Assembly: GCA_964619675.1 (NCBI GenBank)
Contig: CAZUEO010000005.1
Span: 15,162-79,161, forward strand
Source: an uncultured Planctomycetaceae bacterium
Lineage (GTDB): Bacteria; Planctomycetota; Phycisphaerae; Sedimentisphaerales; UBA12454
DNA length: 64,000 nt
Reading direction: 5' to 3'
Part shown: one piece after another, positions 3,009 through 35,806 of the stretch
Layout: every line of letters starts with the position of its first letter
How positions within the stretch are numbered: the first letter of the stretch is position 1
Notes under the pieces: model-generated
Database searches by the model: none
What the model saw: the letters and a program-made list of their open reading frames with translations, nothing else
What the model was told of the DNA's origin: nothing
Program-made: the position numbers and the translations under genes

Positions 3009-3599
3009 ATGGATACTTTTTATGTTTTATTAATGGCGTTTGTTTCGATTGTTGTGGTCAACAATCTTGTCTTTTCAAAATTTCTCGGCATCTGTCCTTA
3101 TCTGGGCGTCTCCGGCAGGATAGATATGGCTTTCGGTATGGGCATGGCGGTAACGTTTGTTATCACCCTTGCGGGCATTATGACATGGCTTATCGACCAT
3201 ATGATACTGATGCCTTACGGGCTGGAGATTACCCGGTATGTTTGTTTCATACTCGTAATAGCCGGCGCCGTGCAGCTTGTCGAGATGTACCTGCGGAAAT
3301 TTTTCCCGCCGTTGTATGAAAGCTTCGGCATATTTCTGCCGCTAATCACCACCAACTGCGCTATTTTAGGGCTTTGCCTGTTTCTTTATGTTTGGGGCAT
3401 TGATAATTTTGTTCAGGCCGCGGTGCTGAGCTTCGGCGCGGGAATTGGTTTTACGCTGGCGATATGCATAATGGCCGGCATCAGGGAGCAACTGAGATTT
3501 GCCGATGTGCCCAAATGTCTTGACGGGCCCCCGATTACTCTGATAACTGCCGGCCTGCTGGCGCTGGCGTTTATGGGCTTTGCAGGAATGATTAAATGA
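3009..3599 (+). CDS. rnfA: Rnf complex subunit A
   Basis: This is a polytopic RnfA/NqrE-family protein (FLPLITTNCAILG) in the expected operon position. Confidence 0.88.
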   Translation: MDTFYVLLMAFVSIVVVNNLVFSKFLGICPYLGVSGRIDMAFGMGMAVTFVITLAGIMTWLIDHMILMPYGLEITRYVCFILVIAGAVQLVEMYLRKFFPPLYESFGIFLPLITTNCAILGLCLFLYVWGIDNFVQAAVLSFGAGIGFTLAICIMAGIREQLRFADVPKCLDGPPITLITAGLLALAFMGFAGMIK

Positions 3600-4483
3600 T
3601 TTTAGCCGATATAATTTCACTTTGGAATTCTTCCTGGCCGGCAGGATTGATAATGCTGGTTTTGGGAGCGGGTTTCTCCATAGCACTTTTGATTGCCAGC
3701 AGGAAGCTGAAGGTCCAGATAGACCCGAGAATTGAGCGTATATATGGGGTTTTGCCGCGGATAGACTGCGGCGCGTGCGGTTTTGCAGGCTGTGCATCTT
3801 ATGCCAAAGCTGTTGCTGCCGACCCGCTGCTTATCGGCAAGTGTGCACCAGGCGGCAGTAGCTGTTCGGAAAAGATAGCGGAGATTCTCAGCCTGGCGGT
3901 CAGCGGCTCAAAGGTGCCTGTAAGGCCGATTGTTCATTGTCGTGCTCATACCGGCGACAGGACTTATCTGGCAAAGTACGGCGGCATACCAACCTGCACG
4001 AGCGCAAATGCACTTGCCAATGTGCAGGCCTGCAAGTTTGGCTGCCTTGGTTTTGGCGACTGCAAGGCGGCGTGTAAATTCGGCGCAATCGACATTATTG
4101 ATGGTCTTGCAACAATTAATTATGAAAAATGCACGGGCTGCACCGCCTGTTCGAAGGCCTGTCCCAGAGGACTTATCGAAATGGTGCCGTTCAGTTATGA
4201 GGCGATGATGACGGTTGCCTGTCGGAGCCGTGAAAACGCGAAGGATACCAAGGCTTTTTGTAAAGTCGGCTGTATCGCCTGCAGATTGTGCACAAAACAA
4301 AACGATGCCTTCAAAGTGACGGACAATCTTGCGAAGCTGGATTATGCAAAATATCAACAGGGTTCATCTTTTGAAACGGCGATGTTCAGGTGTCCTACCG
4401 GTGTTATTGTGTATCGCGGCAGAGGGGCGCCGCCTGACAGAGCCCCCACAGAAATATCGCAGCCTGCGGCACAAAAGACTTAA
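3596..4483 (+). CDS. rnfB: Rnf complex subunit B (polyferredoxin)
   Basis: It has an N-terminal TM helix, a CGACGFAGC cluster and several CxxCxxCxxxCP-type motifs. Its start overlaps the rnfA stop (ATGA). Confidence 0.88.
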   Translation: MILADIISLWNSSWPAGLIMLVLGAGFSIALLIASRKLKVQIDPRIERIYGVLPRIDCGACGFAGCASYAKAVAADPLLIGKCAPGGSSCSEKIAEILSLAVSGSKVPVRPIVHCRAHTGDRTYLAKYGGIPTCTSANALANVQACKFGCLGFGDCKAACKFGAIDIIDGLATINYEKCTGCTACSKACPRGLIEMVPFSYEAMMTVACRSRENAKDTKAFCKVGCIACRLCTKQNDAFKVTDNLAKLDYAKYQQGSSFETAMFRCPTGVIVYRGRGAPPDRAPTEISQPAAQKT

Positions 4484-23351: not shown

Positions 23352-26282
23352 TTATAACAGGCCGCAGGCCTTGGCCAAGATTTTAATCGGGTGTTCGACT
23401 TTTTTGCCGGTTATATGTTCAATCTGCATTTTGCAGGTTGAGCATTCTGTTAAAACGACATCTGCTCCTGATTTTTCTATTTTTTCTGCCAGTTTCCTGC
23501 CGATTTGCATTGAAAGCTCGTAATTTTTCTTTTGCATCCCGAACGTGCCCGCTATCCCGCAGCATCCGCCGTCAAGCTCTTTTACGTCAATCCCCGCAAG
23601 CTCTTTTAAAACCTTTATTGACGTGGGTTTATCTCCCAATGCAAGAAGATGGCAGGGCGTATGATGAACAAAAACGTTACCGTTTAGCCGTCGCCGGAAC
23701 GGCGATGAGTCATTCCCGCGTAAGCAGGAATCCAGTTTATTTTGGTTCATTAAGTTTTTCAGATATTCAAAAAGCTCATACGTATTTTCCGAAACCATCT
23801 TTGCTTCACTGCTATCTATAAAAAACCGCAAATCTTCTTTAAGACACAAGGCCGCGCTAGGCTCGGAGCAGACAATTTTATAACCCTGCCTTACGGCCTC
23901 GGACAGAGATTGAACATTATATTCTAAATCTTTTTTACTTGTTTTTATGTCGCCGTAAACAATGGCAGGTAGCGGCGCAGGCCTTTGTTTGGGAATAGTT
24001 ACATCGATATTATTGAATCTTAAAAATTTTATAACGGCAAAGCCAAGTTCGTGGTCGTTATAATTAACAAAGGTATCCGTAAAATACGCAACCTTATCGA
24101 CAGGGTTTTGTAATTTAGGCTGCTCTGCTAAATATTTGTTTGCTTTTCTTATAAAAGTCGAGAAGCCGAATTTCGGCATTTTTCTTCTTTTATCTATGCC
24201 TGTTAAAATTTGCATAATCCATCTGGCAGGCGCAAGGCTCATAAAAATATTGCTCAGCGGCGCAAAAGCAGAGGCGAGCATACTCATATAGCGGTTGGAA
24301 GCCAAAATCTTTGCTGTGCGGCTCTTTGTCAATTTCGTGCGGACTTCCATCATCATTTTTGGAACATCCACACCCGAAGGGCAATCAATCACGCAAGCCC
24401 TGCAATTCAGGCAGGTTGCGAGAATTTCTCTGAATTTCTTCGATTCTAAATCCTGCTCTGTCAGAATTCCCTTTGCCCAGGCGCTGAGCAGATTTGCTCT
24501 TGCGCGAGAAGAAAACATCTCATCTCCTGTTGCACGAAACACAGGACACATCCGCAAGCCCTCTTCATTACTTCGGCAAACCCCGCAGCCGCTGCATTGA
24601 ACAAGCTCAAACTTAAATTCGTCAGGCTTAAAATTAAGTTTTGTCTTTACTCTCTCGTCGATAATTTTATTTTTGCCGCGCAGGTCCTGTGTCATTATAT
24701 CGGTTCTGTCGCTGATGATTTTGCCCGGGTTGAGAATATTCGAAGGGTCAAAGATTTTCTTTATCTGTCTTAAAATTTCATAATATTCATTGCCGAACTG
24801 TTTCCTGATAAATGCCGCTCGCACCAGGCCGTCGGCATGTTCGCCGCTTATCGAGCCGCCCAGCGACCAGGCAAGCGAGAAAACCTCATCGGCTATCTGT
24901 GTCATTTTTTTAACATCGTCGGGCTTTGACAAATCCAGATAAGGCCTTATATGCAGTTCGCCGTCGCCCGCATGGCCGTAATAGGCCATATCAACTTCGT
25001 ATTTTCTGCCGATTTTCTCAAGCCCCCTCACATAGTCGGCCAGCCTCGTATTCTCAACGGAAACATCCTCAACGAAGGCAACAGGCTGTTTCAAGCCCTT
25101 TACCCTGCTTAAAAGCGGCACCGCATCCTTTCGGCATTTCCACAACCTCTTTTGCACGGCAGGCTCGAAGATGGTTGTCTTGTTGAACGCAAGAGAACTG
25201 ACCGCCAAAATAGTTTTTCCAATTTTGTCTTTAACTTCCGGCACCGTCTGGCCTGAATGCTCGACAAGCAGACTTGCAGCCGAGACAGGATTGAGAATAT
25301 TGCGATACTGCTCGAAGGCGTCTCTTGCGATTTTAATCAGTCTGCTGTCCATCAGCTCGCAGGCGTCGGCGCCGCAATTGACAATCAGCGGCACTGCTTT
25401 AGCCGTTTTCTCAAGCGAATCGAATTCAAACTGCACTACTGCTTTGACCTGCTCCGCATCAACCGTCCGCAGCGTAATTTCAGTAAAAACCGCCAGTGTG
25501 CCTTCAGAACCTGCGAGAAGTTTGGCCATATCAATTTTGTTGCCCTGAACAATCTCTGCGATATTGTATCCGCTGTGGCTGCGTTTTGTTTTCGGCTGAG
25601 CCTTTTCAATAATCGAAGCATTTGAATTCAGCAGTTCAAAACATTTTTGCGAAATGGTTAGCCCCAACCCCTGTGGTCGGGAGTTTAGCTCAACATTATT
25701 TACAAATTCAGCAGCCGTACCGTCCGCAAGAACCGCCTTTATTTTTTCAACATACTGGGCGATGTAACCATATTTTAGTGAGTGTGAACCGGTAGCGTTA
25801 TTTGCGACAACGCCGCCTGCTGTAGCGCGGTTGCTGCTTGACGGGTCCGGCCCGATTTTTTTGCCGAACTTCGCAAGGAAACTATTAACCTCGTCAAGCA
25901 CAACGCCCGGCTGGCAGACTACAGTGCTTACATCGGTGCTTGCGCCGATAATCTTGTTCATATAGCGGGTCGTATCGAGCATAATGCCGCTCGTTAGCGA
26001 CTCTCCCGCAAGGCCGCTGCCCGCCCCGCGAGCAACGACAGGTATATTATTGCGATAAGCGTATCTTACAACAATAGCAACGTCGTCTTCATTTTTGGGC
26101 GCAACGACGCAAAGCGGGATTATCTGGTAAATGCTCGCATCGGTGCTGAACGCCGCGCGCGTAAAAATATCAGCCAAACAATCGCCCGCTATCAATTGCG
26201 AAATTTCTTTGGCAATCTGCTGCGGTGCTGAAGAACTTTTGACAGGTCTGTTCATTTGACTTTCATTATAGTTTATTTTCAT
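23352..26282 (-). CDS. YdiJ-like FAD-linked oxidase fused to 4Fe-4S and CCG (GlcF/HdrD-like) domains
   Basis: The N-terminal FAD_binding_4 region (RGAGSGLAGES), two ferredoxin-type Cys clusters (CSGCGVCRS, CLNCRACVIDCP) and a C-terminal CCGIAGTFG motif are present. The protein is 976 aa. Confidence 0.85.
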   Translation of the reverse strand: MKINYNESQMNRPVKSSSAPQQIAKEISQLIAGDCLADIFTRAAFSTDASIYQIIPLCVVAPKNEDDVAIVVRYAYRNNIPVVARGAGSGLAGESLTSGIMLDTTRYMNKIIGASTDVSTVVCQPGVVLDEVNSFLAKFGKKIGPDPSSSNRATAGGVVANNATGSHSLKYGYIAQYVEKIKAVLADGTAAEFVNNVELNSRPQGLGLTISQKCFELLNSNASIIEKAQPKTKRSHSGYNIAEIVQGNKIDMAKLLAGSEGTLAVFTEITLRTVDAEQVKAVVQFEFDSLEKTAKAVPLIVNCGADACELMDSRLIKIARDAFEQYRNILNPVSAASLLVEHSGQTVPEVKDKIGKTILAVSSLAFNKTTIFEPAVQKRLWKCRKDAVPLLSRVKGLKQPVAFVEDVSVENTRLADYVRGLEKIGRKYEVDMAYYGHAGDGELHIRPYLDLSKPDDVKKMTQIADEVFSLAWSLGGSISGEHADGLVRAAFIRKQFGNEYYEILRQIKKIFDPSNILNPGKIISDRTDIMTQDLRGKNKIIDERVKTKLNFKPDEFKFELVQCSGCGVCRSNEEGLRMCPVFRATGDEMFSSRARANLLSAWAKGILTEQDLESKKFREILATCLNCRACVIDCPSGVDVPKMMMEVRTKLTKSRTAKILASNRYMSMLASAFAPLSNIFMSLAPARWIMQILTGIDKRRKMPKFGFSTFIRKANKYLAEQPKLQNPVDKVAYFTDTFVNYNDHELGFAVIKFLRFNNIDVTIPKQRPAPLPAIVYGDIKTSKKDLEYNVQSLSEAVRQGYKIVCSEPSAALCLKEDLRFFIDSSEAKMVSENTYELFEYLKNLMNQNKLDSCLRGNDSSPFRRRLNGNVFVHHTPCHLLALGDKPTSIKVLKELAGIDVKELDGGCCGIAGTFGMQKKNYELSMQIGRKLAEKIEKSGADVVLTECSTCKMQIEHITGKKVEHPIKILAKACGLL

Positions 26283-26916
26283 TATTTTGTCTATGCCTGC
26301 GGCGCGGCTTTTCTGCCCTGCTTCTCAAATCCTCCTGCAGCAGATAGCTTCTGAATGGCTCATTTTTGAAACACGGGAAGTTCAGCGGCGCGTATTCTTC
26401 TTCCTGCTGCTGCAGCACAAATTTATCGCGTGCCATAGCCGCGACGATTCGGTTATGCGGGCTGTCAGGCAGTTGGAATGATAATTGTTTGCCGCCGCTT
26501 AGCTGATATGTTGCCTGGCAGTATTTTCCACACTTCCTGTTCTTTAGGCAGACACCGATAAATCCTGTTCCGTTTTTGCATTTCTTATTCAGGTTATTTT
26601 GTCTTTTGGTTACAATCCGCAGATTTTCTCTTCGGTTATCAAGCGGGTCTCTGTTCCTGTGGTCGACGAGCTGGCCTTCTTTGGCATTCATTACGAACCG
26701 TGAAAGCCGCAGGTGCCTTTGTGGCGGTTTATCTCCGACGATAATTACCGGATAGCCTTCGCTTGCGATTTGGATTGTCTTGATATCGCCGTTGTATTTT
26801 CTGTAAGGCGGTTCGTGTCGGGTGCTGAAAATTTTGTAATAGATATCCGCATCGACTTTTACGAGTCGGCCTCTGACTTTGAACATCAGGTAATCGATTT
26901 TGCATTTAGTTGCCAT
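26266..26916 (-). CDS. Free-standing HNH endonuclease with a C-terminal AP2-like DNA-binding domain
   Basis: VDHRNRDPLDNRRENLRIVTKRQNNLN is an HNH_3 motif, followed by GFIGVCLKN..KYCQATYQL..FQLP (AP2-like). The ATG at 26916 is preceded by GGAGAG, and the upstream 28 codons of the tracked ORF were rejected. Confidence 0.75.
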   Translation of the reverse strand: MATKCKIDYLMFKVRGRLVKVDADIYYKIFSTRHEPPYRKYNGDIKTIQIASEGYPVIIVGDKPPQRHLRLSRFVMNAKEGQLVDHRNRDPLDNRRENLRIVTKRQNNLNKKCKNGTGFIGVCLKNRKCGKYCQATYQLSGGKQLSFQLPDSPHNRIVAAMARDKFVLQQQEEEYAPLNFPCFKNEPFRSYLLQEDLRSRAEKPRRRHRQNNENKL

Positions 26917-27004
26917 ACGTTCTCTCCAAATGTCGAATTCAAAAAATTTTAAATATTGAATTTTACATCTTAAATTAGTTATTTGCTTGCCAAATAACAC
27001 AGCT

Positions 27005-27287: not shown

Positions 27288-28139
27288 TTATTTTTTACCG
27301 TCGTCCCTTATATCTTCGAATGAAACCTGCAGTCCCTGCAGGTCTGTTACGCTTATTTCTCCTTTGATAAACTGCCGAACAGCGGGCAGTGTGCTGTTTT
27401 TGATTGTTTCTGCGTTGCCGTCAACGATTACTTTGCCGTTATGCAGCATTATAATCCGGTCTGCTATCTTATATGCGCTGTTCATATCGTGTGTAACCAC
27501 TATGGTTGTAACGCCGAGCTCTTTTCTCAGTTTCAAAATCAGTTCGTTAATAATATCCGCTCTTACAGGGTCAAGTCCCGTTGTCGGCTCATCGTAGAGG
27601 ATAACTTCCGGATTCAGTGCGATTGCCCTTGCAAGTGCGACCCTTTTTTTCTGTCCGCCGGAGAGCCTTGCCGGATAATAATTTTGAAAGCCGTCCATTC
27701 CCATCATTGCAAGCTTGGTCCTGACAATCTCGTCGAGCTTTTTATGGTCTTTGATATGCTGCTGCTGCTCGACCGGGAAGATGATATTTTCATAAACGGT
27801 CATACTGTCGAACAGTGCCCCGCTTTGGAACAGAAAGCCCATCTGCGTGCGGATATCGCCGAGTTTGCTCTCAGGCAGGTTATCGATTCGCTGACCGTGA
27901 AAATAGACTTCCCCTGAGCCAGGCCGCAGTAGTACTATTATATGTTTTATGAGTACGGTTTTTCCGCATCCGCTTGGCCCGATTATAGCGGTAGTCTTGC
28001 CCTTTTCGAAGGCAAGCGAGATATCGTTAAGCACGACATTTTTTCCGAACCTTTTGACAAGGTTTTTAAGAACGATTATTCTATCGCCTGACCGCCTTTG
28101 GCGGACCTCGCTTTGAGCGGGTTTTATTTCCTTTTCCAT
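27288..28139 (-). CDS. mlaF: ABC transporter ATP-binding protein, MlaF/Ttg2A-like
   Basis: Walker A GPSGCGKT, signature LSGGQKKRVALARA and Walker B ILYDEPTTGLD are present. Its partner permease is at 34970-35806. Confidence 0.8.
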   Translation of the reverse strand: MEKEIKPAQSEVRQRRSGDRIIVLKNLVKRFGKNVVLNDISLAFEKGKTTAIIGPSGCGKTVLIKHIIVLLRPGSGEVYFHGQRIDNLPESKLGDIRTQMGFLFQSGALFDSMTVYENIIFPVEQQQHIKDHKKLDEIVRTKLAMMGMDGFQNYYPARLSGGQKKRVALARAIALNPEVILYDEPTTGLDPVRADIINELILKLRKELGVTTIVVTHDMNSAYKIADRIIMLHNGKVIVDGNAETIKNSTLPAVRQFIKGEISVTDLQGLQVSFEDIRDDGKK

Positions 28140-28151
28140 TTCAACCTTATT

Positions 28152-28982
28152 TTATTTATTGCCTTTAAAAAGTTTTTTGTTTTCAGGCCGCTGCAGATAG
28201 TTTTGTCTCGAAATTACTCTTTTACTGGACTTTGATTCAAGGTCTTTGCGTGCCTTTCCTGCAACATCGCCTCCTTCGACAGCGGCTTGCTTATTTTCGT
28301 CAAATCTCTGTGCATCGCGATTTCTGGTTATTTCTGTTGTGGCCGCCTCACCAAGCATAGAAAAAATTAGCTCGAGGTCTGTCATATGATCTCGCAGATT
28401 TTCGCGGTCAAGTCCTTTAAGTTTCTTATATTCGCCTGGCGTTAAACCAAAAGCCGCTTTCGATATTTCCGCGGTTAATATCCCATATTCTGTTTGTTCC
28501 TTAACGCCCCGGGTCTTCCATTCGTCGGTAAGTTCTTCCCGAACAGCTATCCCCCGCATACGTTTTTCTATCCAGTTATCGGAGTATCCCTTGGCCTTGT
28601 AAAGTGCGCGGGTTCTTTTTGTCGCCAGTTCCGGGTCTTCAATTTCCCGGATGCGTTCATAACCGACCCTTGCCAGCCAGCGTTTAAAAGGCTCTGCTTT
28701 GGGGCTTGGTATTGACTGAATTATGCGGAAAATACCTTCCGTATCGGCACAATTTACCTTCTGTGGGCCGCCGTCGGTATCTATCAAAAGGGTATGTACA
28801 AATTGTACCCATCCTTTGGATAGCTGTGGGTCTCGTTTCCGCATTTTATTGATGTATTGTTTTGGGTCATTGGAATCAGTCAGCGCAAAAACGACATCTT
28901 CGACAACGAACCACCATTCGTCTTTATGAATAGTTTTTCTTATTTCCTTGCCTTTGAATACTGCTATTTTTGTCGTTTCCAT
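28152..28982 (-). CDS. Bro-N domain protein (DinD-like, 276 aa)
   Basis: The N-terminal Bro-N-like region is FKGKEIRKTIHKDEWWFVVEDVVFAL. The C-terminal region has a DinD-like length and pattern (LRDHMTDLELIFSMLGEAATTEI). Confidence 0.65.
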   Translation of the reverse strand: METTKIAVFKGKEIRKTIHKDEWWFVVEDVVFALTDSNDPKQYINKMRKRDPQLSKGWVQFVHTLLIDTDGGPQKVNCADTEGIFRIIQSIPSPKAEPFKRWLARVGYERIREIEDPELATKRTRALYKAKGYSDNWIEKRMRGIAVREELTDEWKTRGVKEQTEYGILTAEISKAAFGLTPGEYKKLKGLDRENLRDHMTDLELIFSMLGEAATTEITRNRDAQRFDENKQAAVEGGDVAGKARKDLESKSSKRVISRQNYLQRPENKKLFKGNK

Positions 28983-29128
28983 TTTGACCTTATTTTATAA
29001 TTTATTCCCCTCGTCCGCAACAGTTCTTTTCGTGGTTAGCCCTGCCAACACTTTGGCGGGGTTTGTCATTTTTTTACGTATTTTGGATGCAGTTGCTGCC
29101 TTCGGTTCGGTAATCAATTGTTCCCCTG

Positions 29129-29163
29129 CCCCGTGAGATGCCGCTTCGGCTATCTCATCGGGG
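29129..29163. repeat. Bulged hairpin element, copy L (CCCCGTGAGAT-gccgcttcggct-ATCTCA-t-CGGGG)
   Basis: It forms an 11-bp stem with one bulged T plus a 3-bp inner stem. A second copy with compensatory changes lies at 34645-34679. Confidence 0.8.
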
Positions 29164-29220
29164 TCATCGCAGCCCTCGGCAGCAACTATAATTCTTGCGA
29201 CAGTTTACCCCGACAGTTTA

Positions 29221-29238
29221 TCCCTGCAAAAGCAGGGA
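29221..29238. repeat. Perfect 7-bp hairpin TCCCTGC-aaaa-GCAGGGA, preceded by a 13-nt tandem duplication (cgacagtttaYcc x2, 29198-29223)
   Basis: I read it directly from the sequence. It resembles the in-frame hairpin at 23712-23731. Confidence 0.7.
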
Positions 29239-29280
29239 AAGGTAGGGGCCATTTGCTTTGCTCCTATTTATTTATCTTTG

Positions 29281-31908
29281 CTAATTCAATATCACATCAT
29301 TAAGAGTTTTTACGGGGGCTTTAAAACTGACATCCTTAAATTGCTCGAAATGCTTTTTGCCGCACTTGATTTTTTGTTGTTCTTCTTGTCGCAATTCCTC
29401 TATGCGATTTGTCCCTTTGGTTTCTGCAACAAAATAAACTTTCTTATCTCCTTCATAAACCAGTGCCCAATCAGGATTATATGTACCGAGCGGAGTTTCT
29501 ATCTTAAACCAGAAAGGCAGTTTGAGATAAAACTTGATATCATCTCTTTTTTCACAGTCTTTTGCAAATTCCTTTTCCGTATAGCTTTCTATTTGAACAT
29601 AATCATAAACGGTTTTTTCTTTTTTCATAACTTCGAATAAATCGTCAAGGTATCCGTAAAGTTCTTCACTGTCAAAAAGCCTCTGTTCCCAGTATGAATC
29701 TGCTATCTTTTCATATTTAATCCCATCAACCATCATTTCATTTAGAACCTCGTTTATCTCGACACAAACTTTATCCATAAACTGCTGAGGGTTGATAAAT
29801 ACATCATCAATTTTGCCCGATTCAAGTAAAATGCGGCAAATGGTATCACGGGTTAATCTGGTCTTGTTCTGAATGTATGAAAGAATATCCGGGACGGTTT
29901 CTATATCGCCATATAAATCCCTACTGGATTGTGTTCTGAGTTCTGCCGTAACAGCGGTTTTATCAATTTCAATATCGGCTTTGGTCCTTATCAGTTTTGG
30001 CTTTGTGATTTTAATATCACCTATTTTTTTGCCTGCCCTCTTTATCAATTCATTGGTATCATAATCAACGCTGTAATGGGTCTTCTGCTTAATTTTATCC
30101 CATAAGAGTTTAAAATTCTCATCAAGCTGTAAATTCTTTTGCAGCTTTATTTGTTTTTTCTTCTTTTTGTTCTTAATCCTGCCGCCGAAACTAACGCCGC
30201 ATTCTTCTTCAATCTCAGACTGTAGGGCTTTTGCAAAATCTTCATAATATTCATTCGCTATAACGGTAAGAATATTTATGTTTTCATCAAATACTCTTTT
30301 ACCATCCTGATTTACAGGCAGTCTCATACCTCTGCCGATCTCCTGTCTTTTCTTTAGTGTTGATTGTGTTTCATTCAGTGTGCATATTTGAAATACGTTT
30401 GGATTATCCCAGCCTTCGCGTAAGGCCGAATGTGAAAATATAAATCTCAAAGGTTCGTTCACATCAAGAAGCCGTTCTTTGTCTTTCATTATCAGTTGAT
30501 ACGCACTATCATCGTCTATGGTATCCCTCCCTTCGCGAGAATCCTTCCAGTTTCCTTTTTTATCCTGCGCGAAATAACCATTGTGAGCCTGCCGGGCCTT
30601 ATAATTCAGCAACCCTTTATATTTGTTTTGGTTTCTTGCCTTTTCGTAAAATTCTTCAAACCATAAAGCTATTTTGCCTTTAACAGGATTTTCATTTTCA
30701 TAATTGCGGTAATTAGCCACTCTGTCGATAAAGAACAGTGTTAAAACTTTTATCCCCTTATCTTTTAATCGTTTTTCCTTTTCAAAATGATTATTTATTG
30801 TGCTTTCAATTTGATACCTCATTATCTCATCGGTCAGCCCGCCTTGTTTTTGCCCGACATTAATAGTTATACCGTTATTAAATGTTATGCCCTCCCTGTC
30901 TATTTCACTTACAATAAATCCCTCTTTATACAGGTCCCTTTTGTTTGACTTTTCATAAAGGTCGTCGCCAACCGAAACATTCACATCTTTTTTCACGACC
31001 CCCTCGTTTGTATTAACATCTATTTTCAGCTTTGCGATTATTTTTCTAGTTTGCGGTTTTATGCTTTTTACTTCAATATACGCCAGGTTGAAATTATCTG
31101 CCTCTGTTATCCCATCAACCTCAATTCTTTTGACAAGCCCCAAATCATAAGCCCTTACGGGGTCAAGCCGGTAAATTTCATTGTATCTTACCGTATGTGT
31201 TGCGGAATATCGAAGCGTGCATAATGGATTAAGATTTGCTATCGCCTGCCTCCTGATATCCGTCTCCATATTTTGAGGCTCATCTACGATAACTATCGGT
31301 CTTGTCGCCTTGATAAACTCTGCCGGCACTCCCCAGTCGCTTTGCTGAAAAAATATGTTTCCTGCCCTTGTGAACTGGTCTATATTCATTACCATTATCT
31401 GCAAAGTGTTGGTCGTTGCAAAATTTCTGGCAAGCCCTCTTTTTTTAGGGTCAAATTCGTGGTAATCCAGTGTCGGCTTTTCATAGAGCATATCAAAATG
31501 CTCTTTTGTTATTTCAAGGTTCTTTAATACGCCTTCTTTAATCGCCAGGCTCGGCACAACAATAATAAACTTCTTAAAACCGTAATTTTTATGTAATTCG
31601 TGTATCGTCCGCAGATAAACATAAGTTTTGCCCGTGCCGGTTTCCATCTCTATTGAAAAATGAAAACCATCGAGTTTATTTGAGACTTCTATTTCATTTC
31701 TCTGCTGAATAATTTGAAGATTTTTTAATATTGTTTCATTGTCAAGGATTAAATTATTCGCAACAACGCTCAAAAATGTTCCGCCAACTGATGTAGCCTT
31801 TGCATAGGCAAAATCGCTCGCCCCCGCAGGTTGACCCGCAAATATTTCAACCGTTGCATTTATAGCATCTTTCTGAAATTCCTGATTTGCGTCAAATTGA
31901 AGTTTCAT
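29281..31908 (-). CDS. res: Type III restriction endonuclease, Res subunit
   Basis: The MKLQFDANQEFQKDAI N-terminus, helicase motif I METGTGKT, motif II IVIVDEPQNM and a C-terminal PD-(D/E)xK region (NPDWALV..FVAETKG) are present. The ATG at 31908 is preferred over 31938. Confidence 0.88.
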   Translation of the reverse strand: MKLQFDANQEFQKDAINATVEIFAGQPAGASDFAYAKATSVGGTFLSVVANNLILDNETILKNLQIIQQRNEIEVSNKLDGFHFSIEMETGTGKTYVYLRTIHELHKNYGFKKFIIVVPSLAIKEGVLKNLEITKEHFDMLYEKPTLDYHEFDPKKRGLARNFATTNTLQIMVMNIDQFTRAGNIFFQQSDWGVPAEFIKATRPIVIVDEPQNMETDIRRQAIANLNPLCTLRYSATHTVRYNEIYRLDPVRAYDLGLVKRIEVDGITEADNFNLAYIEVKSIKPQTRKIIAKLKIDVNTNEGVVKKDVNVSVGDDLYEKSNKRDLYKEGFIVSEIDREGITFNNGITINVGQKQGGLTDEIMRYQIESTINNHFEKEKRLKDKGIKVLTLFFIDRVANYRNYENENPVKGKIALWFEEFYEKARNQNKYKGLLNYKARQAHNGYFAQDKKGNWKDSREGRDTIDDDSAYQLIMKDKERLLDVNEPLRFIFSHSALREGWDNPNVFQICTLNETQSTLKKRQEIGRGMRLPVNQDGKRVFDENINILTVIANEYYEDFAKALQSEIEEECGVSFGGRIKNKKKKKQIKLQKNLQLDENFKLLWDKIKQKTHYSVDYDTNELIKRAGKKIGDIKITKPKLIRTKADIEIDKTAVTAELRTQSSRDLYGDIETVPDILSYIQNKTRLTRDTICRILLESGKIDDVFINPQQFMDKVCVEINEVLNEMMVDGIKYEKIADSYWEQRLFDSEELYGYLDDLFEVMKKEKTVYDYVQIESYTEKEFAKDCEKRDDIKFYLKLPFWFKIETPLGTYNPDWALVYEGDKKVYFVAETKGTNRIEELRQEEQQKIKCGKKHFEQFKDVSFKAPVKTLNDVILN

Positions 31909-31913
31909 TTTGC

Positions 31914-31944
31914 ACCAATTTGAAATTTGAAATCTCAAATCTGA
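31914..31944. repeat. Direct repeat, left copy (core 27-mer atttgaaatttgaaatctcaaatctga at 31918-31944)
   Basis: It is identical over 27 nt, and 30/31 over the extended match, to 32468-32498. It is itself built of 7-nt units (31921-31948), and AATCTCA-aatc-TGAGATT forms a hairpin at 31931-31948. Confidence 0.9.
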
Positions 31945-31946
31945 GA

Positions 31947-32450
31947 TTATTTATCTTCTGGATAATCCTGCGGCCTGGCCTTTCTCAAAGTTTCCTGAAT
32001 TTGTTTTTCAAACGCATCTGCACGTCTTTTCGCTTCATATATGCCGCGTGTATTTTCATTTAAATGCCGTTGTCCTTTTATATCGCTGTTTTGCAGGCTG
32101 TCCGCCCATCCGCGTATCTGCCGTGAGCACGATTCCGCTTTTGATTTGAGATCTGAAATCTGAGATTTCAGATGTGCCGCTTCTGGAAACAGTTCTGTAA
32201 AAAGCAGCATTGAGCGTGTTTCTCCGCACGAGCCGCGGGAGATATATAAGAAGGCGAGCAGTTCCGCCGTTGAGCCGCGCTCAAATCCTTCTGCTATATT
32301 ATTCGAAACTGAAAGCGAAGAACGACGCATCTGGTCGCGAAGGTCCCCGGGCTGATTGAAGAACTTGTCTTTAGTCAGCTCATACACTCCTTTGGCCAGT
32401 TCTATCGCTAACTGCCACACCGGTAAATCTTCAAACCGCTCATATTTCAT
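31947..32450 (-). CDS. Four-helix-bundle protein (23S rRNA-intervening-sequence protein family), copy 1, with an extended C-terminus
   Basis: FEDLPVWQLAIELAKGVYELT..LRDQMRRSSLSVSNNIAEGFERGS..FLYISRGSCGETRS matches the family signature. It is inserted between mod and res. Confidence 0.85.
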   Translation of the reverse strand: MKYERFEDLPVWQLAIELAKGVYELTKDKFFNQPGDLRDQMRRSSLSVSNNIAEGFERGSTAELLAFLYISRGSCGETRSMLLFTELFPEAAHLKSQISDLKSKAESCSRQIRGWADSLQNSDIKGQRHLNENTRGIYEAKRRADAFEKQIQETLRKARPQDYPEDK

Positions 32451-32467
32451 CTTTTTTATCCTTCAAA

Positions 32468-32574
32468 ACCTATTTGAAATTTGAAATCTCAAATCTGATA
32501 TCCGTTTATGAAATCTGAAACTTCAAATCTGCTATTTTTTAGTTTTCTGAAATTTGAGATTTTAAATCTGAGAT
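32468..32574. repeat. Direct repeat, right copy (32468-32498), plus two more 4-unit heptamer arrays (32509-32536 and 32547-32574)
   Basis: The arrays read tgaaatt tgaaatc tcaaatc tgatatc / tgaaatc tgaaact tcaaatc tgctatt / ctgaaat ttgagat tttaaat ctgagat. Together they fill the mod-4HB intergenic gap. Confidence 0.9.
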
Positions 32575-32577
32575 TCG

Positions 32578-34449
32578 TCATATTACTTTAAATTCTATTC
32601 TTTCGCCTTCCATCTGCAGAGCCGTATTCGTCTTTAACCGGTCGTTATTACTAAAAGCAATATCAAGGCAGGTAAACCTCTGGGGCTTTTCTTTTATAAT
32701 CTTTTCGACGAATTTTTTTGTTATTTTCTCTGCAAGGCAGATAATCTCCATACCGTCCGCAAGACTGAAATAATCAATTGAATCAAAATTTTTCTTTTCA
32801 ATCTTTACATTCAAATCAAATCGGCTGTTTTTAAGAATAATCTCAAAGAGCATATCTTCAACGGCCGCACCCTTTTTCGTATTATCAACGAACATCTTCA
32901 TCTGCTCTTTTAATTGGCCGGCCGTTTTTATATCTTCTCGCCACTGCTTGAAATTACTCTGCTCTAATTTAAAGACCTTAAATCCCAAATCCAATTTGTT
33001 TTTGTCAAATTTGAGATTCCCTTCTATCTCCTTTTTTATCTTTTCCGCCGCCCGCCGGAGCCTTTCCTTGCCTATTTCAGCTATTGTCTTAAAGCCCGCT
33101 TTATATGCCTCGCTGTCTTCTTCGCAAGGCTCTGCCAACTGAACGCAGATAAATTTCCTGTTCCCGCCATCTTCAGCATTCAAAGCCATTACTGCGTGTG
33201 CCGTTGTACAAGACCCGGCAAAAAAATCGAGAACGATATCATCTTCACCTAAGCCTTGTACTAACAGCTCTCTAATTAATTCTGTAGGCTTTGGGAACTC
33301 CATATATCTAGCTTTAAATAATTCTTCTAATTCATTGGTTCCATTTCTTGTATATATATCAGGTGCTATAATCGAAGAATAACCCGTGAACTCGTCATTA
33401 AGTTCAGAAAGAAATATTTTTCTGCGTGGTCTTCCTTTTTGTGACTGCGGCCAGATTATCCTATCTTCTTCAATCAATTTTTGCATGGTGTTTTTATCAT
33501 ATCGCCACCCCATTTTAGGTTTGCCATAATTAATACCAGTCTTGGGATTTATTAAGTCATAATGACAATTAGGCCTTTGTTCTTCCGGCAATAAACCTAC
33601 CATATTTCCGCTTACCCAGTCTCCTCTTGGATCATTGTCTGGATTTTTGTATTGTTCTTTATTTCTTTCTGAACCTCTTATCCTATTTCCTGAAGTTCTC
33701 GTATAAACAAGTACATATTCATGATCGATCGAAACGCCCGTGATATTTCGATTATCTTTATTTTGACGGCTTTTCCAAATAAGTTGCGCAACAAAACTTT
33801 CCTCTCCAAAAATTTCATTCATAATCATTCGCAGGTTATAGACTTCGTTGTCATCGATTGAAACAAAAATAACGCCGTCATCACGGAGCAGATTTCTTGC
33901 CAGAAAAAGTCTCGGATATATCATTGAAAGCCAGTTTGAATGAAAATGGCCTGCATCTTTACTGTTCTTTCGCCAGAAACCGTCTTTTGTAAGTAGTCCT
34001 TCGGCGTCTTTTATCCCTGCCCGCAGTTCGTAATCTTCTTTCTCCTCTTTGAATCTGTCGGGATAAATAAAACTGTCGTTGCCGGTATTATATGGCGGGT
34101 CGATATAAATCATCTTTATTTTGCCGTAATAGGTTTTTTGCAGGACTTTAAGGACCTCTAAATTATCCCCTTCAATAAAAATATTTTCTGAGCTCTGAGA
34201 TTTCAAATCTGAGATTTTCAGTGTTGCTGTCGTGGTTTCTTGTATATGGCGAAAGCACTCGCTTTTTCCCGCCCAGCTTAGGCCGTATCGTTCATTATTT
34301 GTATCGAGTTCTTCGCCGAGTGTTTGTTTTAGTTTGTCTGGGCTGATTTTGCCTTCGGCAAAAATCTCTGGGAAGCGGGATTTGAGCAGTTCCGCAAGTT
34401 CTTTTTGTGGGCTTGCCGAATTGCCGTCTATTTTATGTATCTTTGCCAT
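32578..34449 (-). CDS. mod: Type III DNA methyltransferase, Mod subunit (beta-class N6-adenine)
   Basis: IYIDPPYNTGND (motif IV) lies upstream of VLDFFAGSCTT (motif I). The 623-aa gene is adjacent to res. Confidence 0.88.
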   Translation of the reverse strand: MAKIHKIDGNSASPQKELAELLKSRFPEIFAEGKISPDKLKQTLGEELDTNNERYGLSWAGKSECFRHIQETTTATLKISDLKSQSSENIFIEGDNLEVLKVLQKTYYGKIKMIYIDPPYNTGNDSFIYPDRFKEEKEDYELRAGIKDAEGLLTKDGFWRKNSKDAGHFHSNWLSMIYPRLFLARNLLRDDGVIFVSIDDNEVYNLRMIMNEIFGEESFVAQLIWKSRQNKDNRNITGVSIDHEYVLVYTRTSGNRIRGSERNKEQYKNPDNDPRGDWVSGNMVGLLPEEQRPNCHYDLINPKTGINYGKPKMGWRYDKNTMQKLIEEDRIIWPQSQKGRPRRKIFLSELNDEFTGYSSIIAPDIYTRNGTNELEELFKARYMEFPKPTELIRELLVQGLGEDDIVLDFFAGSCTTAHAVMALNAEDGGNRKFICVQLAEPCEEDSEAYKAGFKTIAEIGKERLRRAAEKIKKEIEGNLKFDKNKLDLGFKVFKLEQSNFKQWREDIKTAGQLKEQMKMFVDNTKKGAAVEDMLFEIILKNSRFDLNVKIEKKNFDSIDYFSLADGMEIICLAEKITKKFVEKIIKEKPQRFTCLDIAFSNNDRLKTNTALQMEGERIEFKVI

Positions 34450-34644
34450 TCGCTTATTTCTCCTTTGCTTCTAATTCGGCTCGATTTTCCCCTATTTTCT
34501 GCCATTCTTTTTTTCCCCAGATTTTTAAATCCGTGCCCGATTCCTTAATTCTGTCTACTGAATTCTCCGTAAGGAGTCCATAGGACTGTATTCTGAATTC
34601 TCTTTTCCGCCATTCCTTTATTTCTCCTATGTTTACCCCGCCTG

Positions 34645-34679
34645 CCCTGTGAGATGTCTCTTAGACTATCTCATCAGGG
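34645..34679. repeat. Bulged hairpin element, copy R (CCCTGTGAGAT-gtctcttagact-ATCTCA-t-CAGGG)
   Basis: Its architecture matches 29129-29163. C:G becomes T:A in both the outer stem and the inner stem. Confidence 0.8.
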
Positions 34680-34711
34680 TGAGATATCCGCCCGCAGGCG
34701 GCTCCTTTCAC

Positions 34712-34739
34712 CAAATACCATATACTAAATGCCAAATAC
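34712..34739. repeat. Heptanucleotide array caaatac catatac taaatgc caaatac
   Basis: Four contiguous 7-nt units, read directly from the sequence. Confidence 0.8.
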
Positions 34740-34790
34740 TCTGGACTTCTTTGTACTCTTCGTGCCCTCTGTGGTGAGAGTTTAGTGTAC

Positions 34791-34869
34791 ATTTTTAATT
34801 TTTATTTGTCGTTTTTATTTTTTATTTTTTATATTTGATATTTTTTACTGGCGACCAGCGACCAGCGAC
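34791..34869. repeat. Heptanucleotide arrays: an ATTTTTW-type run of 8 units (34791-34846), then gcgacca x2.7 (34851-34869)
   Basis: The 7-nt register is maintained across attttta attttta tttgtcg tttttat tttttat tttttat atttgat atttttt, followed by gcgacca gcgacca gcgac. Confidence 0.8.
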
Positions 34870-34940
34870 TAATTATCGACTCGGCTATTCGACTTTCAAC
34901 TCTTGCCCGCCGCAGGCGGGCCGGCGGTTCCATTATTCTG

Positions 34941-34968
34941 TAATCTATAATCTACAATCTGTAATCTG
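34941..34968. repeat. Heptanucleotide array taatcta taatcta caatctg taatctg, abutting the mlaE stop
   Basis: Four contiguous 7-nt units end 1 nt before the mlaE stop codon (34970-34972). Confidence 0.85.
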
Positions 34969-34969
34969 C

Positions 34970-35806
34970 TTAAAGCAGTATTTTCAATGGCCACAATGTT
35001 GAGTAAATAGCCTTGAATACCACTACCAGGACAAAGTCTATCGCCAGTATCAGGATAAAACTGCCGACGAACCCTTCTGTACACGCCTGGCCTACGCCAT
35101 GAGCACCTTCTTTGCAGTGGAAGCCTTTATAGCAGCTTACGCCTGCGATTGCTGCTCCGAAGAAGAAGCCTTTTACAACGCCTATTGAGATATCCCACAT
35201 TTCGACGCCTCCGGCGCTGAGGCTCCAGTAGGCTTTGCTATTGATACCGAGGTAGGGTACGCTGATGAAGTATCCGCCGAGGATACCGAGGATATCGGCA
35301 TAGATTATCAGGAATGGTGTAAGGAGCAGGCAGGCTATTAATCGTGGAGCCACGAGGTATTTTATTGGGTCGGTGCCCATACTGCGGACTGCCAGTATTT
35401 GTTCTGTTACGTTCATTGTGCCGAGTTCTGCGGTAAGTGCTCCGCCGACTCTGCCGGCGAGCATAACTGCTGCCAGCACAGGCCCCAGTTCTTTTACGAC
35501 TGACAGGTTAATTAGTACGCCAAGATGTTCTTCAATTCCCAGCCCTGCAAGCTGGTCATAGGCCTGAATCGCAAGCACCATCCCCACAAACGCTCCGGTG
35601 ATAGCAACGACGAGTACGCTGCGGACGCCGATGGCGAGCATCTGATTCCATATCAATGGATAAGTCGGGGGCCTTAAACACGCTGCAAAGGAGGCGACTA
35701 AAGATTCAGCCTGAAACCTGGCGAATCTGCCGCAGTTGCCCACAGCGGTAACTACCCAGCCGCCCAACTGCTCCAGCATCGAACTTCTTGTTTGCTGCTG
35801 TGCCAT
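34970..35806 (-). CDS. mlaE: ABC transporter permease, MlaE/Ttg2B-like
   Basis: The MlaE-family pattern is present (ILAVRSMGTDPIKYLVAPRLIA), with a polytopic C-terminal half. Confidence 0.82.
   Translation of the reverse strand: MAQQQTRSSMLEQLGGWVVTAVGNCGRFARFQAESLVASFAACLRPPTYPLIWNQMLAIGVRSVLVVAITGAFVGMVLAIQAYDQLAGLGIEEHLGVLINLSVVKELGPVLAAVMLAGRVGGALTAELGTMNVTEQILAVRSMGTDPIKYLVAPRLIACLLLTPFLIIYADILGILGGYFISVPYLGINSKAYWSLSAGGVEMWDISIGVVKGFFFGAAIAGVSCYKGFHCKEGAHGVGQACTEGFVGSFILILAIDFVLVVVFKAIYSTLWPLKILL

What the first reader, a model, noticed from the sequence alone, without database searches (positions are those of the whole stretch)
29129..34679. Two copies of a bulged hairpin with compensatory base changes bracket the res-4HB-mod module
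Copy L (29129-29163) reads CCCCGTGAGAT gccgcttcggct ATCTCA T CGGGG. Copy R (34645-34679) reads CCCTGTGAGAT gtctcttagact ATCTCA T CAGGG. Both form an 11-bp outer stem with the same single bulged T, plus a 3-bp inner stem and a 5-nt loop. The copies differ at two stem positions, and in both cases the partner base has changed as well: outer C:G becomes T:A, and inner C:G becomes T:A. Pairing is therefore preserved, which is the classical signature of selection on structure. Both copies are in the same orientation and are preceded by a similar ccc(c)tgcc/cctgcc tract. They lie just outside res (stop at 29281) and mod (start at 34449). They could be cassette boundaries or recombination sites, RNA processing or stability elements of the island transcript, or a REP-like family.
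Basis: seen in the sequence. Interest (0 to 1): 0.7.

Follow-up and report, generated by a model that had tools for sequence, protein, structure and literature searches.

The report
Dispersed palindromic repeat, not cassette boundary
The two hairpins are real and structurally conserved, but they are two independent copies of a 40-base palindromic repeat scattered through Sedimentisphaerales (Planctomycetota) genomes and often attached to small HNH-AP2 nuclease genes, not the boundaries of the restriction-modification module.

Summary
Both 35-nt hairpins are at the stated coordinates and fold strongly. They differ by three, not two, fully compensated base pairs.

They are not a private pair. 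A genome scan found about 100 copies in about 24 Planctomycetota (Phycisphaerae/Sedimentisphaerales) species genomes. The consensus is YYTR-CCCYG-TGAGAT-G-NNN-YTT-NNN-C-T-ATCTCA-T-CRGGG-T. Covariation is family-wide. G:T wobbles (52) far outnumber A:C mismatches (2), so one strand is the structured one. Copies are intergenic, mostly antisense to neighbouring genes, sometimes nested, tandem or in-frame within a gene. They vary in presence between relatives. Exact 40-mers of L and of R occur in another genome, so the L/R differences are subfamily differences.

Many copies sit at the 3' end of small HNH-AP2 endonuclease genes, sometimes containing the stop codon.

All 28 relatives checked have mlaE and mlaF adjacent. 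The window carries a 6.7-kb island (Bro-N plus mod-4HB-res) between them. The hairpins lie about 200 nt and 1 kb inside that island. Close homologues of the module elsewhere mostly lack them.

Verdict: a REP/MITE-like element family of a new variant. The cassette-boundary reading is not supported. How the elements move is unknown; the nuclease link is a hypothesis.

The parts
29125..29164 (+). Copy L of the 40-nt palindromic element: prefix CCTGCC, a 15-bp stem with two bulged T's, loop CTT, and a 3' T. Subfamily CCG...GCCG/CGGC.
   Evidence: (68.5 bits). Identical 40-mers occur in L038 and L075.
34641..34680 (+). Copy R of the same element. Subfamily CTG...CAG with inner stem GTCT/AGAC.
   Evidence: (65.8 bits). 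An identical 40-mer occurs in L020, and a 52-nt stretch is 98% identical to L062.
34631..34712 (+). Remnant of an older TTTACC-type copy into which R is nested: GTTTACCCCG | R | TGAGATATCCGCCCGCAGGCGG.... Its 3' arm is degenerate.
   Evidence: Read from the sequence. L062 has the same nested junction, and L026 has the same large-loop variant.
29203..29241 (+). Partial or miniature relatives: GTTTACCCCG, then TTTATCCCTG-CAAAAG-CAGGGA, which keeps the outer stem only.
   Evidence: Weak model hit of 12.3 bits, reported on the opposite (-) strand (29207-29241).
29033..29070 (+). Hairpin of a second repeat family (GGTTAGCCC...GGGGTTTGTCAT followed by a T-run), next to copy L.
   Evidence: terminator-like hit on +. 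The same family appears in L087, L011 and L194.
28147..34887 (-). Island absent from all relatives: about 200 nt of spacer, hairpin R, mod, 4HB, res, hairpin L, Bro-N. It is inserted between mlaE and mlaF.
   Evidence: In 28 of 28 related loci mlaE and mlaF are adjacent. The 13-nt duplicated mlaF start region lies at 34888-34900 and 28134-28146. G+C is 37-39% against about 47% in the flanks.
32578..34449 (-). mod (N6_N4_Mtase), type III methyltransferase.
31947..32450 (-). Four-helix-bundle protein (23S_rRNA_IVP family) between mod and res. This position is conserved in all homologous modules.
29281..31938 (-). res (ResIII helicase plus RE_endonuc), type III restriction subunit.
28152..28982 (-). 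Bro-N domain gene, part of the island. The same res-hairpin-BroN order is found in L182.
26266..27000 (-). HNH-AP2-like endonuclease gene of a divergent subfamily with no attached hairpin. It is inserted between mlaF and the FAD-oxidase gene and is absent there in L086.
   Evidence: (HNH_3), (4e-42 to the family HMM).

Best explanation
L and R are two independently placed members of a lineage-specific family of 40-nt palindromic repeats. The family is REP/MITE-like and populates the non-coding DNA of Sedimentisphaerales/Phycisphaerae genomes.

Shown:
- The unit is YYTR + CCCYG-TGAGAT-G-NNN-YTT-NNN-C-(T)-ATCTCA-(T)-CRGGG + T.
- Its hairpin is maintained by compensatory change.
- Only one strand tolerates wobble pairs, so the element acts as a single strand of fixed polarity. 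In the window that is the + strand, antisense to res and mod.
- Copies are gained and lost between close relatives, insert into the 5' arm of other copies, form 39-nt tandem arrays, and can sit in-frame inside a gene.
- A 'TTTACC' subtype forms the 3' end of small HNH-AP2 endonuclease genes. The codons F-T-P-stop can be encoded by the prefix and 5' arm.
- The CCTGCC/CTTGCC subtypes, to which L and R belong, occur solo.

Inferred:
- The elements are selfish DNA that propagates through a hairpin-forming single-stranded intermediate.
- The most likely helper is a structure-specific nuclease supplied in trans. HNH-AP2 is the only recurrent candidate.
- They accumulate where insertions are tolerated, such as the spacers of a recently acquired Bro-N + type III R-M island.
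- Their bracketing of res-4HB-mod follows from that preference and from one copy lying in the res/Bro-N spacer. It is not a recombination function.
- In the island's mRNA the reverse complements would still fold and could incidentally affect 5'/3' stability.
For: Family and distribution:
- One search found 94 stretches. Nearly all are Planctomycetota MAGs, with up to about 17 loci per genome. My own estimate is about 17 chance hits, and 5 hits are non-planctomycete.
- Searches give 101 copies, 76 of them distinct 40-mers.
- The viral, phage and plasmid collections gave no family member. Rfam has no match.

Structure:
- Searches give 98.1% of cells paired, 6 pairs with double changes, and 0 of 500 shuffles reaching the observed covariation.
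- Variant arms are compensated.

Strand asymmetry:
- One search counts 52 G:T/T:G against 2 A:C/C:A. At pair 8:36 the search pattern allowed both, and the counts are 25 against 0.

Mobility:
- L083 and L086 carry copies where the window has none, and the reverse also holds.
- An in-frame insert lies in the FAD-oxidase gene of L097.
- There are 6 hits in 765 kb of mlaE-anchored relatives; 5 of them, including every strong one, are in the four closest loci.

Context:
- Co-directional antisense 29 against sense 6; convergent 24 against divergent 9.

HNH-AP2 link:
- AP2, HNH_3 and Bro-N are the top recurrent neighbours among 124 flanking ORFs.
- There are 29 HMM hits (28 in the 89 loci plus the window's own gene). 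In 11 of 20 full-length genes a hairpin lies at or within about 60 nt after the stop in the sense orientation, and in 2 more it is antisense. The stop codon is inside the stem in L031, L056 and L089.

Not cassette ends:
- define the island boundaries.
- Searches give the contexts of Res homologues.
- L and R are exact copies of subfamilies seen elsewhere.
Against: - No transposase or recombinase has been tied to the element, and the mode of spread is unproven.
- The HNH-AP2 link was measured mostly in loci chosen because they hold a hairpin. In five HNH-AP2 contexts found through proteins, only one had a canonical copy nearby (117 nt upstream, antisense). One had a hairpin of a second family over its stop codon, one had small GTTTACC hairpins, and two had none. 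Only 1 of 120 homologues ends in F-T-P.
- The only two copies in 64 kb both flank the R-M genes. I estimate p of about 0.02 under uniform intergenic placement.
- Variant copies lie downstream of res in two other contexts (L176, L182). Some tie to this island family is therefore not excluded.
- Gene calls behind the orientation counts are crude ORF calls.
Confidence: 0.8

Rival explanations
1. The hairpins are attC-like single-strand recombination sites, and hairpin-gene-hairpin units are mobile cassettes. This would include res-4HB-mod here and the HNH-AP2 gene itself. Such units would be moved by a structure-specific enzyme, or by nuclease-induced break repair between hairpins.
For: - L and R are in direct orientation around the module.
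- Two extrahelical T's lie on one arm, with single-strand polarity.
- The structured strand is antisense to the enclosed genes, as for attC bottom strands (established knowledge of integrons).
- In L054 a canonical copy lies about 17 nt before the HNH-AP2 start codon and a variant copy lies after the stop. L089 has the same canonical copy before the start, but its sequence ends a few bases into the downstream variant.
- Bracketing by chance is about p = 0.02.
- The mod-4HB-res module sits in several unrelated contexts, so it is mobile by some route.
Against: - The island ends are about 28147 and 34887, not the hairpins, and Bro-N lies between L and the island end.
- Homologous modules in L177, L179/180 and L183 have no hairpin on either side.
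- L and R are different subfamilies with identical copies elsewhere.
- Most copies are solo, nested or tandem.
- There is no integrase among the recurrent neighbours.
- There is no GTTRRRY/RYYYAAC core, read directly from the consensus.
Confidence: 0.08
2. The hairpins are RNA elements of the island transcript: a 5'-UTR stem-loop before mod and a 3' stem-loop after res. They would protect the mRNA or terminate transcription.
For: - On the minus (mRNA) strand both copies fold just as well: -22.8 and -18.4 kcal/mol.
- Their positions fit a 5' UTR and a 3' UTR.
- A promoter-like site at 34899-34872 on the minus strand would place R inside the mod leader (not above chance).
- REPs in E. coli stabilise upstream mRNA (established knowledge).
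Against: - The family-wide wobble pattern puts the selected structure on the opposite strand.
- Copies are antisense to co-directional host genes 29 to 6.
- There is no U-tract after either strand's hairpin.
- Homologous modules work without them.
Confidence: 0.07
3. They are canonical REP elements or IS200/IS605-type ends, mobilised by a Y1 HUH transposase (a RAYT or TnpA) that recognises the bulged hairpin on single-stranded DNA.
For: - Size, palindromy, copy number, the 3'-end and convergent bias, a conserved unpaired 5' tetranucleotide, strand polarity, and the lack of TSD and TIR all fit.
- These match features described for REPs (PMC3733652) and for IS608 ends (established knowledge).
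Against: - There is no GTAG or CGTC tag in the consensus.
- No Y1 transposase is among the recurrent neighbours.
- The one RAYT-like gene found in 1.6 Mb is flanked by unrelated classic GTAG REPs.
- Copies are not arranged as inverted REPIN pairs.
Confidence: 0.1
4. The solo copies are inert relics. Each marks a former HNH-AP2 gene whose coding part was deleted. The structure is selected only in the gene-attached copies, as the 3' stem-loop of the nuclease mRNA.
For: - The hairpin is in the sense orientation and overlaps the stop codon in several HNH-AP2 genes.
- HNH-AP2 genes usually converge on the downstream host gene. That would leave antisense relics.
- G:U wobbles fit an RNA role in those transcripts.
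Against: - Solo copies start at a fixed 6-nt prefix rather than at ragged deletion ends.
- The CCTGCC/CTTGCC subtypes are never gene-attached, yet they are the commonest, and they insert into gene-attached TTTACC copies (L014, L062).
- Tandem 39-nt arrays and an in-frame copy inside a gene are not deletion products.
Confidence: 0.12

Closest known systems
REP / BIME elements and REPINs with their RAYT transposases (E. coli, Pseudomonas; GTAG- and CGTC-tagged families, PMC3733652)
   Same: - A short imperfect palindrome of 35-40 nt with an unpaired conserved 5' tetranucleotide.
- Tens of copies per genome, extragenic, and favouring 3' ends and convergent gaps.
- G:T pairing on one strand.
- Subfamilies with complementary stem changes.
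- Clustered copies.
   Different: - No GTAG or CGTC tag.
- No RAYT association seen.
- Copies are direct, tandem or nested, not inverted pairs.
- The stem is longer (15 bp) with two fixed bulged T's.
- It is attached to HNH-AP2 nuclease genes.
Integron attC sites
   Same: - Conserved by structure more than by sequence in the centre.
- Extrahelical bases on one strand.
- Acts as a folded single strand.
- The functional strand is antisense to adjacent genes.
- Can flank genes in direct orientation.
   Different: - No R'/R'' core sites.
- 40 nt against 57-141 nt.
- No IntI integrase.
- Not at insertion boundaries.
- Mostly solo.
IS200/IS605 subterminal hairpins and their non-autonomous derivatives (PATEs)
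   Same: - Bulged hairpins of fixed polarity at both ends of a segment.
- No target duplication.
- No terminal inverted repeats.
   Different: - No TnpA or TnpB nearby.
- The hairpins are not at the ends of the inserted DNA.
- The element is the hairpin alone.
Rickettsia palindromic elements (RPEs)
   Same: A palindromic repeat that can insert in-frame into protein-coding genes, as in the FAD-oxidase gene of L097.
   Different: RPEs are 100-150 bp. Here coding insertions are rare, and the lineage is different.
Free-standing HNH homing endonuclease genes, including HNH-AP2 proteins of phages and cyanobacteria
   Same: - Small intergenic HNH_3 + AP2 genes.
- Multi-copy.
- Inserted between conserved host genes and variable between relatives.
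   Different: To my knowledge, and in the searched literature, no dispersed hairpin repeat has been described as their 3' module. Homing has not been shown here.

Membership tests
REP/RAYT system | Unpaired GTAG or CGTC tag at one end of the palindrome | tested here: not met
   The consensus 5' flank is YYTR (CCTG, CTTG or TTTA) and the 3' flank is T. A true GTAG REP pair is seen in L140 and is unrelated.
REP/RAYT system | A RAYT (Y1 HUH) gene flanked by the same repeats in the genome | tested here: inconclusive
   No Y1 gene is among the recurrent neighbours. tblastn over 1.6 Mb found one RAYT-like gene, flanked by other REPs.
REP/RAYT system | Short, multi-copy extragenic palindrome with a bias to 3' ends of genes | tested here: met
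Integron attC | Inverse core RYYYAAC and core GTTRRRY at the base of the stem | tested here: not met
   The stem base is CCCYG/CRGGG with no GTT/AAC.
Integron attC | Lies at cassette junctions next to an intI gene and attI | tested here: not met
   No integrase was found in the ten ORFs of 23.3-41.2 kb scanned around the island, and none recurs beside copies. The island junctions are elsewhere.
Integron attC | Extrahelical bases and single-strand polarity | tested here: met
   Two bulged T's and the wobble asymmetry.
IS200/IS605 ends or PATE | Hairpins are subterminal to the mobile segment, and TnpA is present in the genome | tested here: not met
   The hairpins are about 200 nt and 1 kb inside the inserted DNA. 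No TnpA hit was found (a weak test).
MITE (DDE-type) | Terminal inverted repeats plus a target-site duplication | tested here: not met
   Flanking inverted repeats are no more frequent than in controls. No consistent duplication was found.
Intrinsic terminator | G+C-rich stem followed directly by a U-tract on the transcribed strand | tested here: not met
   Neither strand of L or R is followed by a T-run. The scan did not list them.
Known RNA families (Rfam 15, including hammerhead) | A covariance-model match | tested here: not met
   No hit even at E up to 10 across 28900-35000. The CUGAUGAG on the minus strand of R lacks the GAAA and helix III parts of a hammerhead, read directly from the sequence.
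3' module of the HNH-AP2 gene unit | Lies at or within about 60 nt after the stop codon of an HNH-AP2 gene, in the sense orientation | tested here: not met
   This holds for 11 of 20 genes in other loci, but not for L or R. The window's HNH-like gene at 26266-27000 has no hairpin. L and R are of the solo CCTGCC subtype.

The most novel reading that the evidence does not exclude
The hairpin family and the HNH-AP2 genes form one mobile system of a kind not yet described. The nuclease would recognise the folded or duplex hairpin and cut in its 5' arm, which is where the nested copies sit. Repair would then copy either a bare 39-40-nt unit or any hairpin-flanked segment into the break: the nuclease gene itself, and possibly defence modules such as mod-4HB-res. 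The hairpins would then be landing pads and cassette borders of a nuclease-driven, transposase-free element.
Probability: 0.15. Interest if true: 0.8.

Novelty: new variant of a known kind. Interest (0 to 1): 0.5.

Why it matters
The result turns an apparent private pair of 'cassette ends' into a defined, searchable repeat family, with a consensus, a structure and a covariance model. The family belongs to a poorly studied bacterial order known mostly from metagenomes.

For annotation, these copies should be masked as repeats. They should not be read as regulatory or recombination sites of the neighbouring defence genes.

For biology, the family is a REP-like element with no RAYT signature. It is physically joined to HNH-AP2 nuclease genes, inserts into itself, and can enter coding sequence. 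If the nuclease link is functional, it would be a new way for small palindromic repeats, and perhaps their cargo, to move. It would also give a testable role to bacterial AP2-domain nucleases.

Tried and rejected
- Rfam at gathering and at permissive thresholds gave nothing.
- A hammerhead reading of CUGAUGAG on the minus strand of R was rejected. L has CCGAUGAG, and there is no GAAA or helix III.
- Exact-protein look-ups of window proteins (MlaE, Mod, and the exact Res P0001) found nothing on record, so the source contig could not be retrieved.
- The viral-contig scan gave one chance-like hit that lacks the prefix and inner stem. Phage and plasmid BLAST gave only chance fragments.
- A loose fuzzy regex for divergent hairpins gave 460 mostly false hits and was dropped in favour of the covariance model.
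- The promoter-like box found upstream of HNH-AP2 genes is absent from the window.
- Tests for terminal inverted repeats and target duplications around the units showed no signal beyond low-complexity flanks.
- The C-termini of 120 HNH-AP2 homologues were checked as a context-free test of stop-in-hairpin. Only 1 ends in F-T-P, so that arrangement is a minority.
- Literature searches for HNH-AP2 plus repeats, REPs in Planctomycetes, and Sedimentisphaerales plus HNH found no description of this family.
- The exact insertion point in nested copies could not be fixed. It falls after CCCCG, after GAGA, or after GAGATG in different cases.
Full report
**1. The observation**

The quoted sequences are at the quoted coordinates. 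Each 35-mer folds into one long hairpin. The RNA energies are -22.8 kcal/mol for L and -18.4 for R, with z-scores near -5, and none of 200 shuffles folds as well. The same fold is predicted with DNA parameters.

It has 15 base pairs in three blocks (5, 6 and 4), separated by two single bulged T's on the 3' arm, and a 3-nt loop CTT.

L and R differ at six positions. These form three fully compensated pairs: C:G to T:A twice and G:C to T:A once.

The repeat is 40 nt long, including the CCTGCC prefix and a trailing T (D5). A covariance model run without filters finds only these two full copies in the 64-kb window.

All neighbouring genes are on the minus strand:
- alaS, 35808-38492
- mlaE, 34970-35806
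- mod, 32578-34449
- a 23S-IVP four-helix protein, 31947-32450
- res, 29281-31938
- a Bro-N gene, 28152-28982
- an mlaF-like ABC ATPase, 27288-28139
- an HNH gene, 26266-27000

The hairpins are therefore antisense to the genes they flank.

**2. A dispersed family**

I scanned one genome for each of 185,579 species with CYGTGAGAT-N12-ATCTCATCRG. This returned 94 stretches. Five are from other phyla and lack the prefix and inner stem. My own calculation expects about 17 chance matches. All the rest are Planctomycetota MAGs labelled Phycisphaerae, Sedimentisphaerales or similar. There are about 24 species genomes, with up to 17 loci in one genome.

The 76 distinct 40-mers give the consensus YYTR-CCCYG-TGAGAT-G-NNN-YTT-NNN-C-T-ATCTCA-T-CRGGG-T.

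On this alignment 98.1% of cells are paired and six pairs show double changes. None of 500 shuffles, and no slid register, approaches the observed covariation.

More divergent copies found with the model carry compensated changes in the 'invariant' middle stem as well: TGGGAT/ATCCCA, TGAAGT/ACTTCA, TTAGAT/ATCTAA and TTAGAC/GTCTAA.

There is no Rfam match. There is no copy in the viral contigs, phage records or plasmids.

**3. Polarity**

Across the stem there are 52 G:T or T:G cells but only 2 A:C or C:A cells. At pair 8:36 the search pattern allowed both kinds, and the counts are 25 against 0. Selection therefore acts on the strand as written, not on its complement. This is the signature of a single-stranded form, RNA or DNA, of fixed polarity.

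I called genes crudely from ORFs. On that basis, copies between co-directional genes are antisense 29 times and sense 6 times. Copies lie between convergent genes 24 times and between divergent genes 9 times. All six hits in an independently chosen 765-kb set are also antisense.

**4. Signs of mobility**

- Copies sit inside the 5' arm of other copies, for example in L014, L035, L038, L040, L062 and L089. R itself is nested in a degenerate TTTACC-type copy: GTTTACCCCG|R|TGAGAT....
- Copies form head-to-tail arrays with a 39-nt period (L081).
- Copies come and go between relatives. L083 has two copies downstream of the FAD-oxidase gene where the window has an 8-nt gap. L086 has one upstream of mlaE where the window has none.
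- In L097 a variant copy lies in-frame inside the FAD-oxidase gene and adds 13 residues.
- No terminal inverted repeats or target duplications accompany the units.
- Exact 40-mers of L occur in L038 and L075, and of R in L020, all from another genome. R plus 12 flanking bases is 98% identical to L062.

The differences between L and R are therefore differences between pre-existing subfamilies. They are not co-evolution of a pair.

**5. Partner genes**

I clustered all ORFs of the hairpin loci. This gave one large family present in a third of them. These are 190-215-residue proteins with HNH_3 and AP2 domains.

Among the 124 ORFs next to hairpins, AP2 (7), Bro-N (3) and HNH_3 (3) are the only families that recur more than twice. 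No transposase or integrase recurs.

An HMM of the family finds 29 genes or fragments: 28 in the 89 loci plus the window's own gene. In 11 of 20 full-length genes a hairpin lies at or within about 60 nt after the stop codon in the sense orientation. In 2 more it is antisense. In L031, L056 and L089 the last codons F-T-P-stop are TTT-ACC-CCG-TGA, that is, the prefix and 5' arm of the element. Only the TTTACC subtype is gene-attached. The CCTGCC and CTTGCC subtypes, which include L and R, are solo and can invade the gene-attached copies.

At least 10 of these genes also share a conserved promoter-like box and heptamer-like leaders.

There is a caveat, because these loci were chosen for hairpins. 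I also found five gene contexts through proteins instead. One has a canonical copy 117 nt upstream in antisense. One has a hairpin of a second family (GTTTAGCCCC...) over its stop codon. One has small GTTTACC hairpins. Two have none. Only 1 of 120 homologues ends in F-T-P.

The link is therefore real but not obligatory. Its meaning is inferred, and could be a 3' RNA stem-loop, a landing site, or shared tolerance of junk DNA.

The window's own HNH gene (26266-27000) belongs to a divergent subfamily without hairpins.

**6. Are L and R the borders of the R-M module?**

The answer is no, for three reasons.

First, the island borders are elsewhere. In 28 of 28 related loci where both genes are visible (MlaE 74-91% identical), and also in L086, mlaE and mlaF are adjacent. 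The window alone carries 6.7 kb between them. Junction alignment puts the island at about 28147-34887. The Bro-N stop lies 12 nt before the mlaF start. A 13-nt copy of the mlaF start region lies at the other end. The hairpins are about 200 nt and about 1 kb inside this island.

Second, the module moves without the hairpins. The mod-4HB-res module is itself mobile. Res homologues of 80-85% identity sit in at least five other contexts. Three of these show both flanks and have no hairpin (L177, L179/180, L183). L176 has one variant copy 670 nt after res. L182 has the order res, nested variant hairpin, Bro-N, as in the window. Copy L thus occupies a spacer that is occupied in a sister island. Copy R has no counterpart.

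Third, the bracketing is only mildly unusual. Under uniform placement in the window's intergenic DNA, one copy in each flanking gap has p of about 0.02. This is suggestive of a preference for island DNA, but not of a border function.

**7. What it is and how it works**

The best-supported reading is a selfish REP/MITE-like palindromic element that needs its hairpin, on one strand, for its own propagation.

The steps that are shown are the family, the structure, the polarity, the turnover, the self-insertion and the attachment to HNH-AP2 genes. The steps that are inferred are a single-stranded intermediate and a trans-acting structure-specific nuclease, with HNH-AP2 as the only recurrent candidate.

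The family fails the defining tests for several known classes:
- Canonical REP/RAYT: there is no GTAG or CGTC tag, and the one RAYT-like gene seen is flanked by unrelated GTAG REPs.
- attC: there are no core sites and no integrase.
- IS200/IS605 ends, DDE-type MITEs and intrinsic terminators.

An incidental effect on the island mRNA is possible, because the complements of L and R fold equally well. The family's polarity argues against that being the selected role.

**8. Novelty and score**

Small palindromic repeat families are a known kind. I found no description of this one, nor of any hairpin repeat joined to HNH-AP2 genes.

I rate it a new variant of a known kind, with interest 0.5. The specific cassette-boundary idea is not supported.

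The most novel reading still open is a nuclease-driven hairpin mobile system that can carry cargo. I give it about 0.15.

Noticed in passing
window 28147-34887, with 34888-34900 and 28134-28146: The Bro-N + mod-4HB-res island is absent from all 28 relatives. It is bounded by a 13-nt duplication of the mlaF ribosome-binding and start region (GTTGAAAGTCGAA / GGTTGAAATGGAA). The proximal copy supplies the -35 of a promoter-like site at 34899-34872 on the minus strand.
   Followed up: partly
window 26266-27000 (-): An HNH-AP2-like gene of a divergent subfamily is inserted between mlaF and the FAD-oxidase gene, and its end overlaps the latter's start. It is absent at this junction in L086, L100 and L112. 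The closest relatives (L096-L101) have 1.6-3.9 kb of other variable DNA there.
   Followed up: partly
L097 15377-15416; window about 25656-25680: A variant hairpin lies in-frame inside the FAD-oxidase gene of L097 and adds the residues PIRQQKLCLTGQA. At the same spot the window has a 7-residue insert (RPQGLGL) containing GGTTAGCCCC, the start of a second repeat family. This protein loop appears to be a hot spot for palindrome insertion.
   Followed up: partly
window 29033-29070 (+); L194 about 3595-3630; L087: A second hairpin family, GGTTAGCCC(C)...GGGGTTTG(C)GTCAT, is often found next to the first. In L194 the HNH-AP2 stop codon TAG lies in its GTTTAGCCCC start, which parallels GTTTACCCCGTGA in the first family.
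   Followed up: partly
window 34938-34967, 31914-31947, 32468-32574, 34182-34215: Heptamer-like tandem tracts (AGATTAC AGATTGT AGATTAT...; TTGAAATTTGAAATCTCAAATCTGAGAT) lie in island spacers and at gene starts. Similar low-complexity tracts flank many solo hairpins and fill the leaders of HNH-AP2 genes in other genomes.
   Followed up: no
window 29090-29100 and 29179-29188: A 10-nt inverted repeat, AGTTGCTGCC / GGCAGCAACT, encloses hairpin L and about 40 nt of flank. This is not a family feature, because flanking inverted repeats are no more common than in controls.
   Followed up: yes
L010, L013, L014, L028, L044, L048, L051, L054, L078, L092, L097 (positions): A conserved promoter-like box...TCGAAAATTCGTCAAAAACGCGCAAGTTTTT..TAATACGGAG, lies 100-170 nt upstream of HNH-AP2 start codons. 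It has no Rfam match and is absent from the window.
   Followed up: partly
So canonical REP/RAYT systems also exist in this wider group.
   Followed up: yes
L177, L179, L182, L183 and window 29281-34449: The three-gene order mod, 23S-rRNA-IVP four-helix protein, res is conserved in every homologous context seen. The small protein is therefore a stable part of this type III system.
   Followed up: no
L028 1-2654: A 23S rRNA gene and two tRNA genes have no 16S gene reported upstream, which suggests unlinked rRNA genes. A hairpin copy and an HNH-AP2 gene lie just upstream.
   Followed up: no
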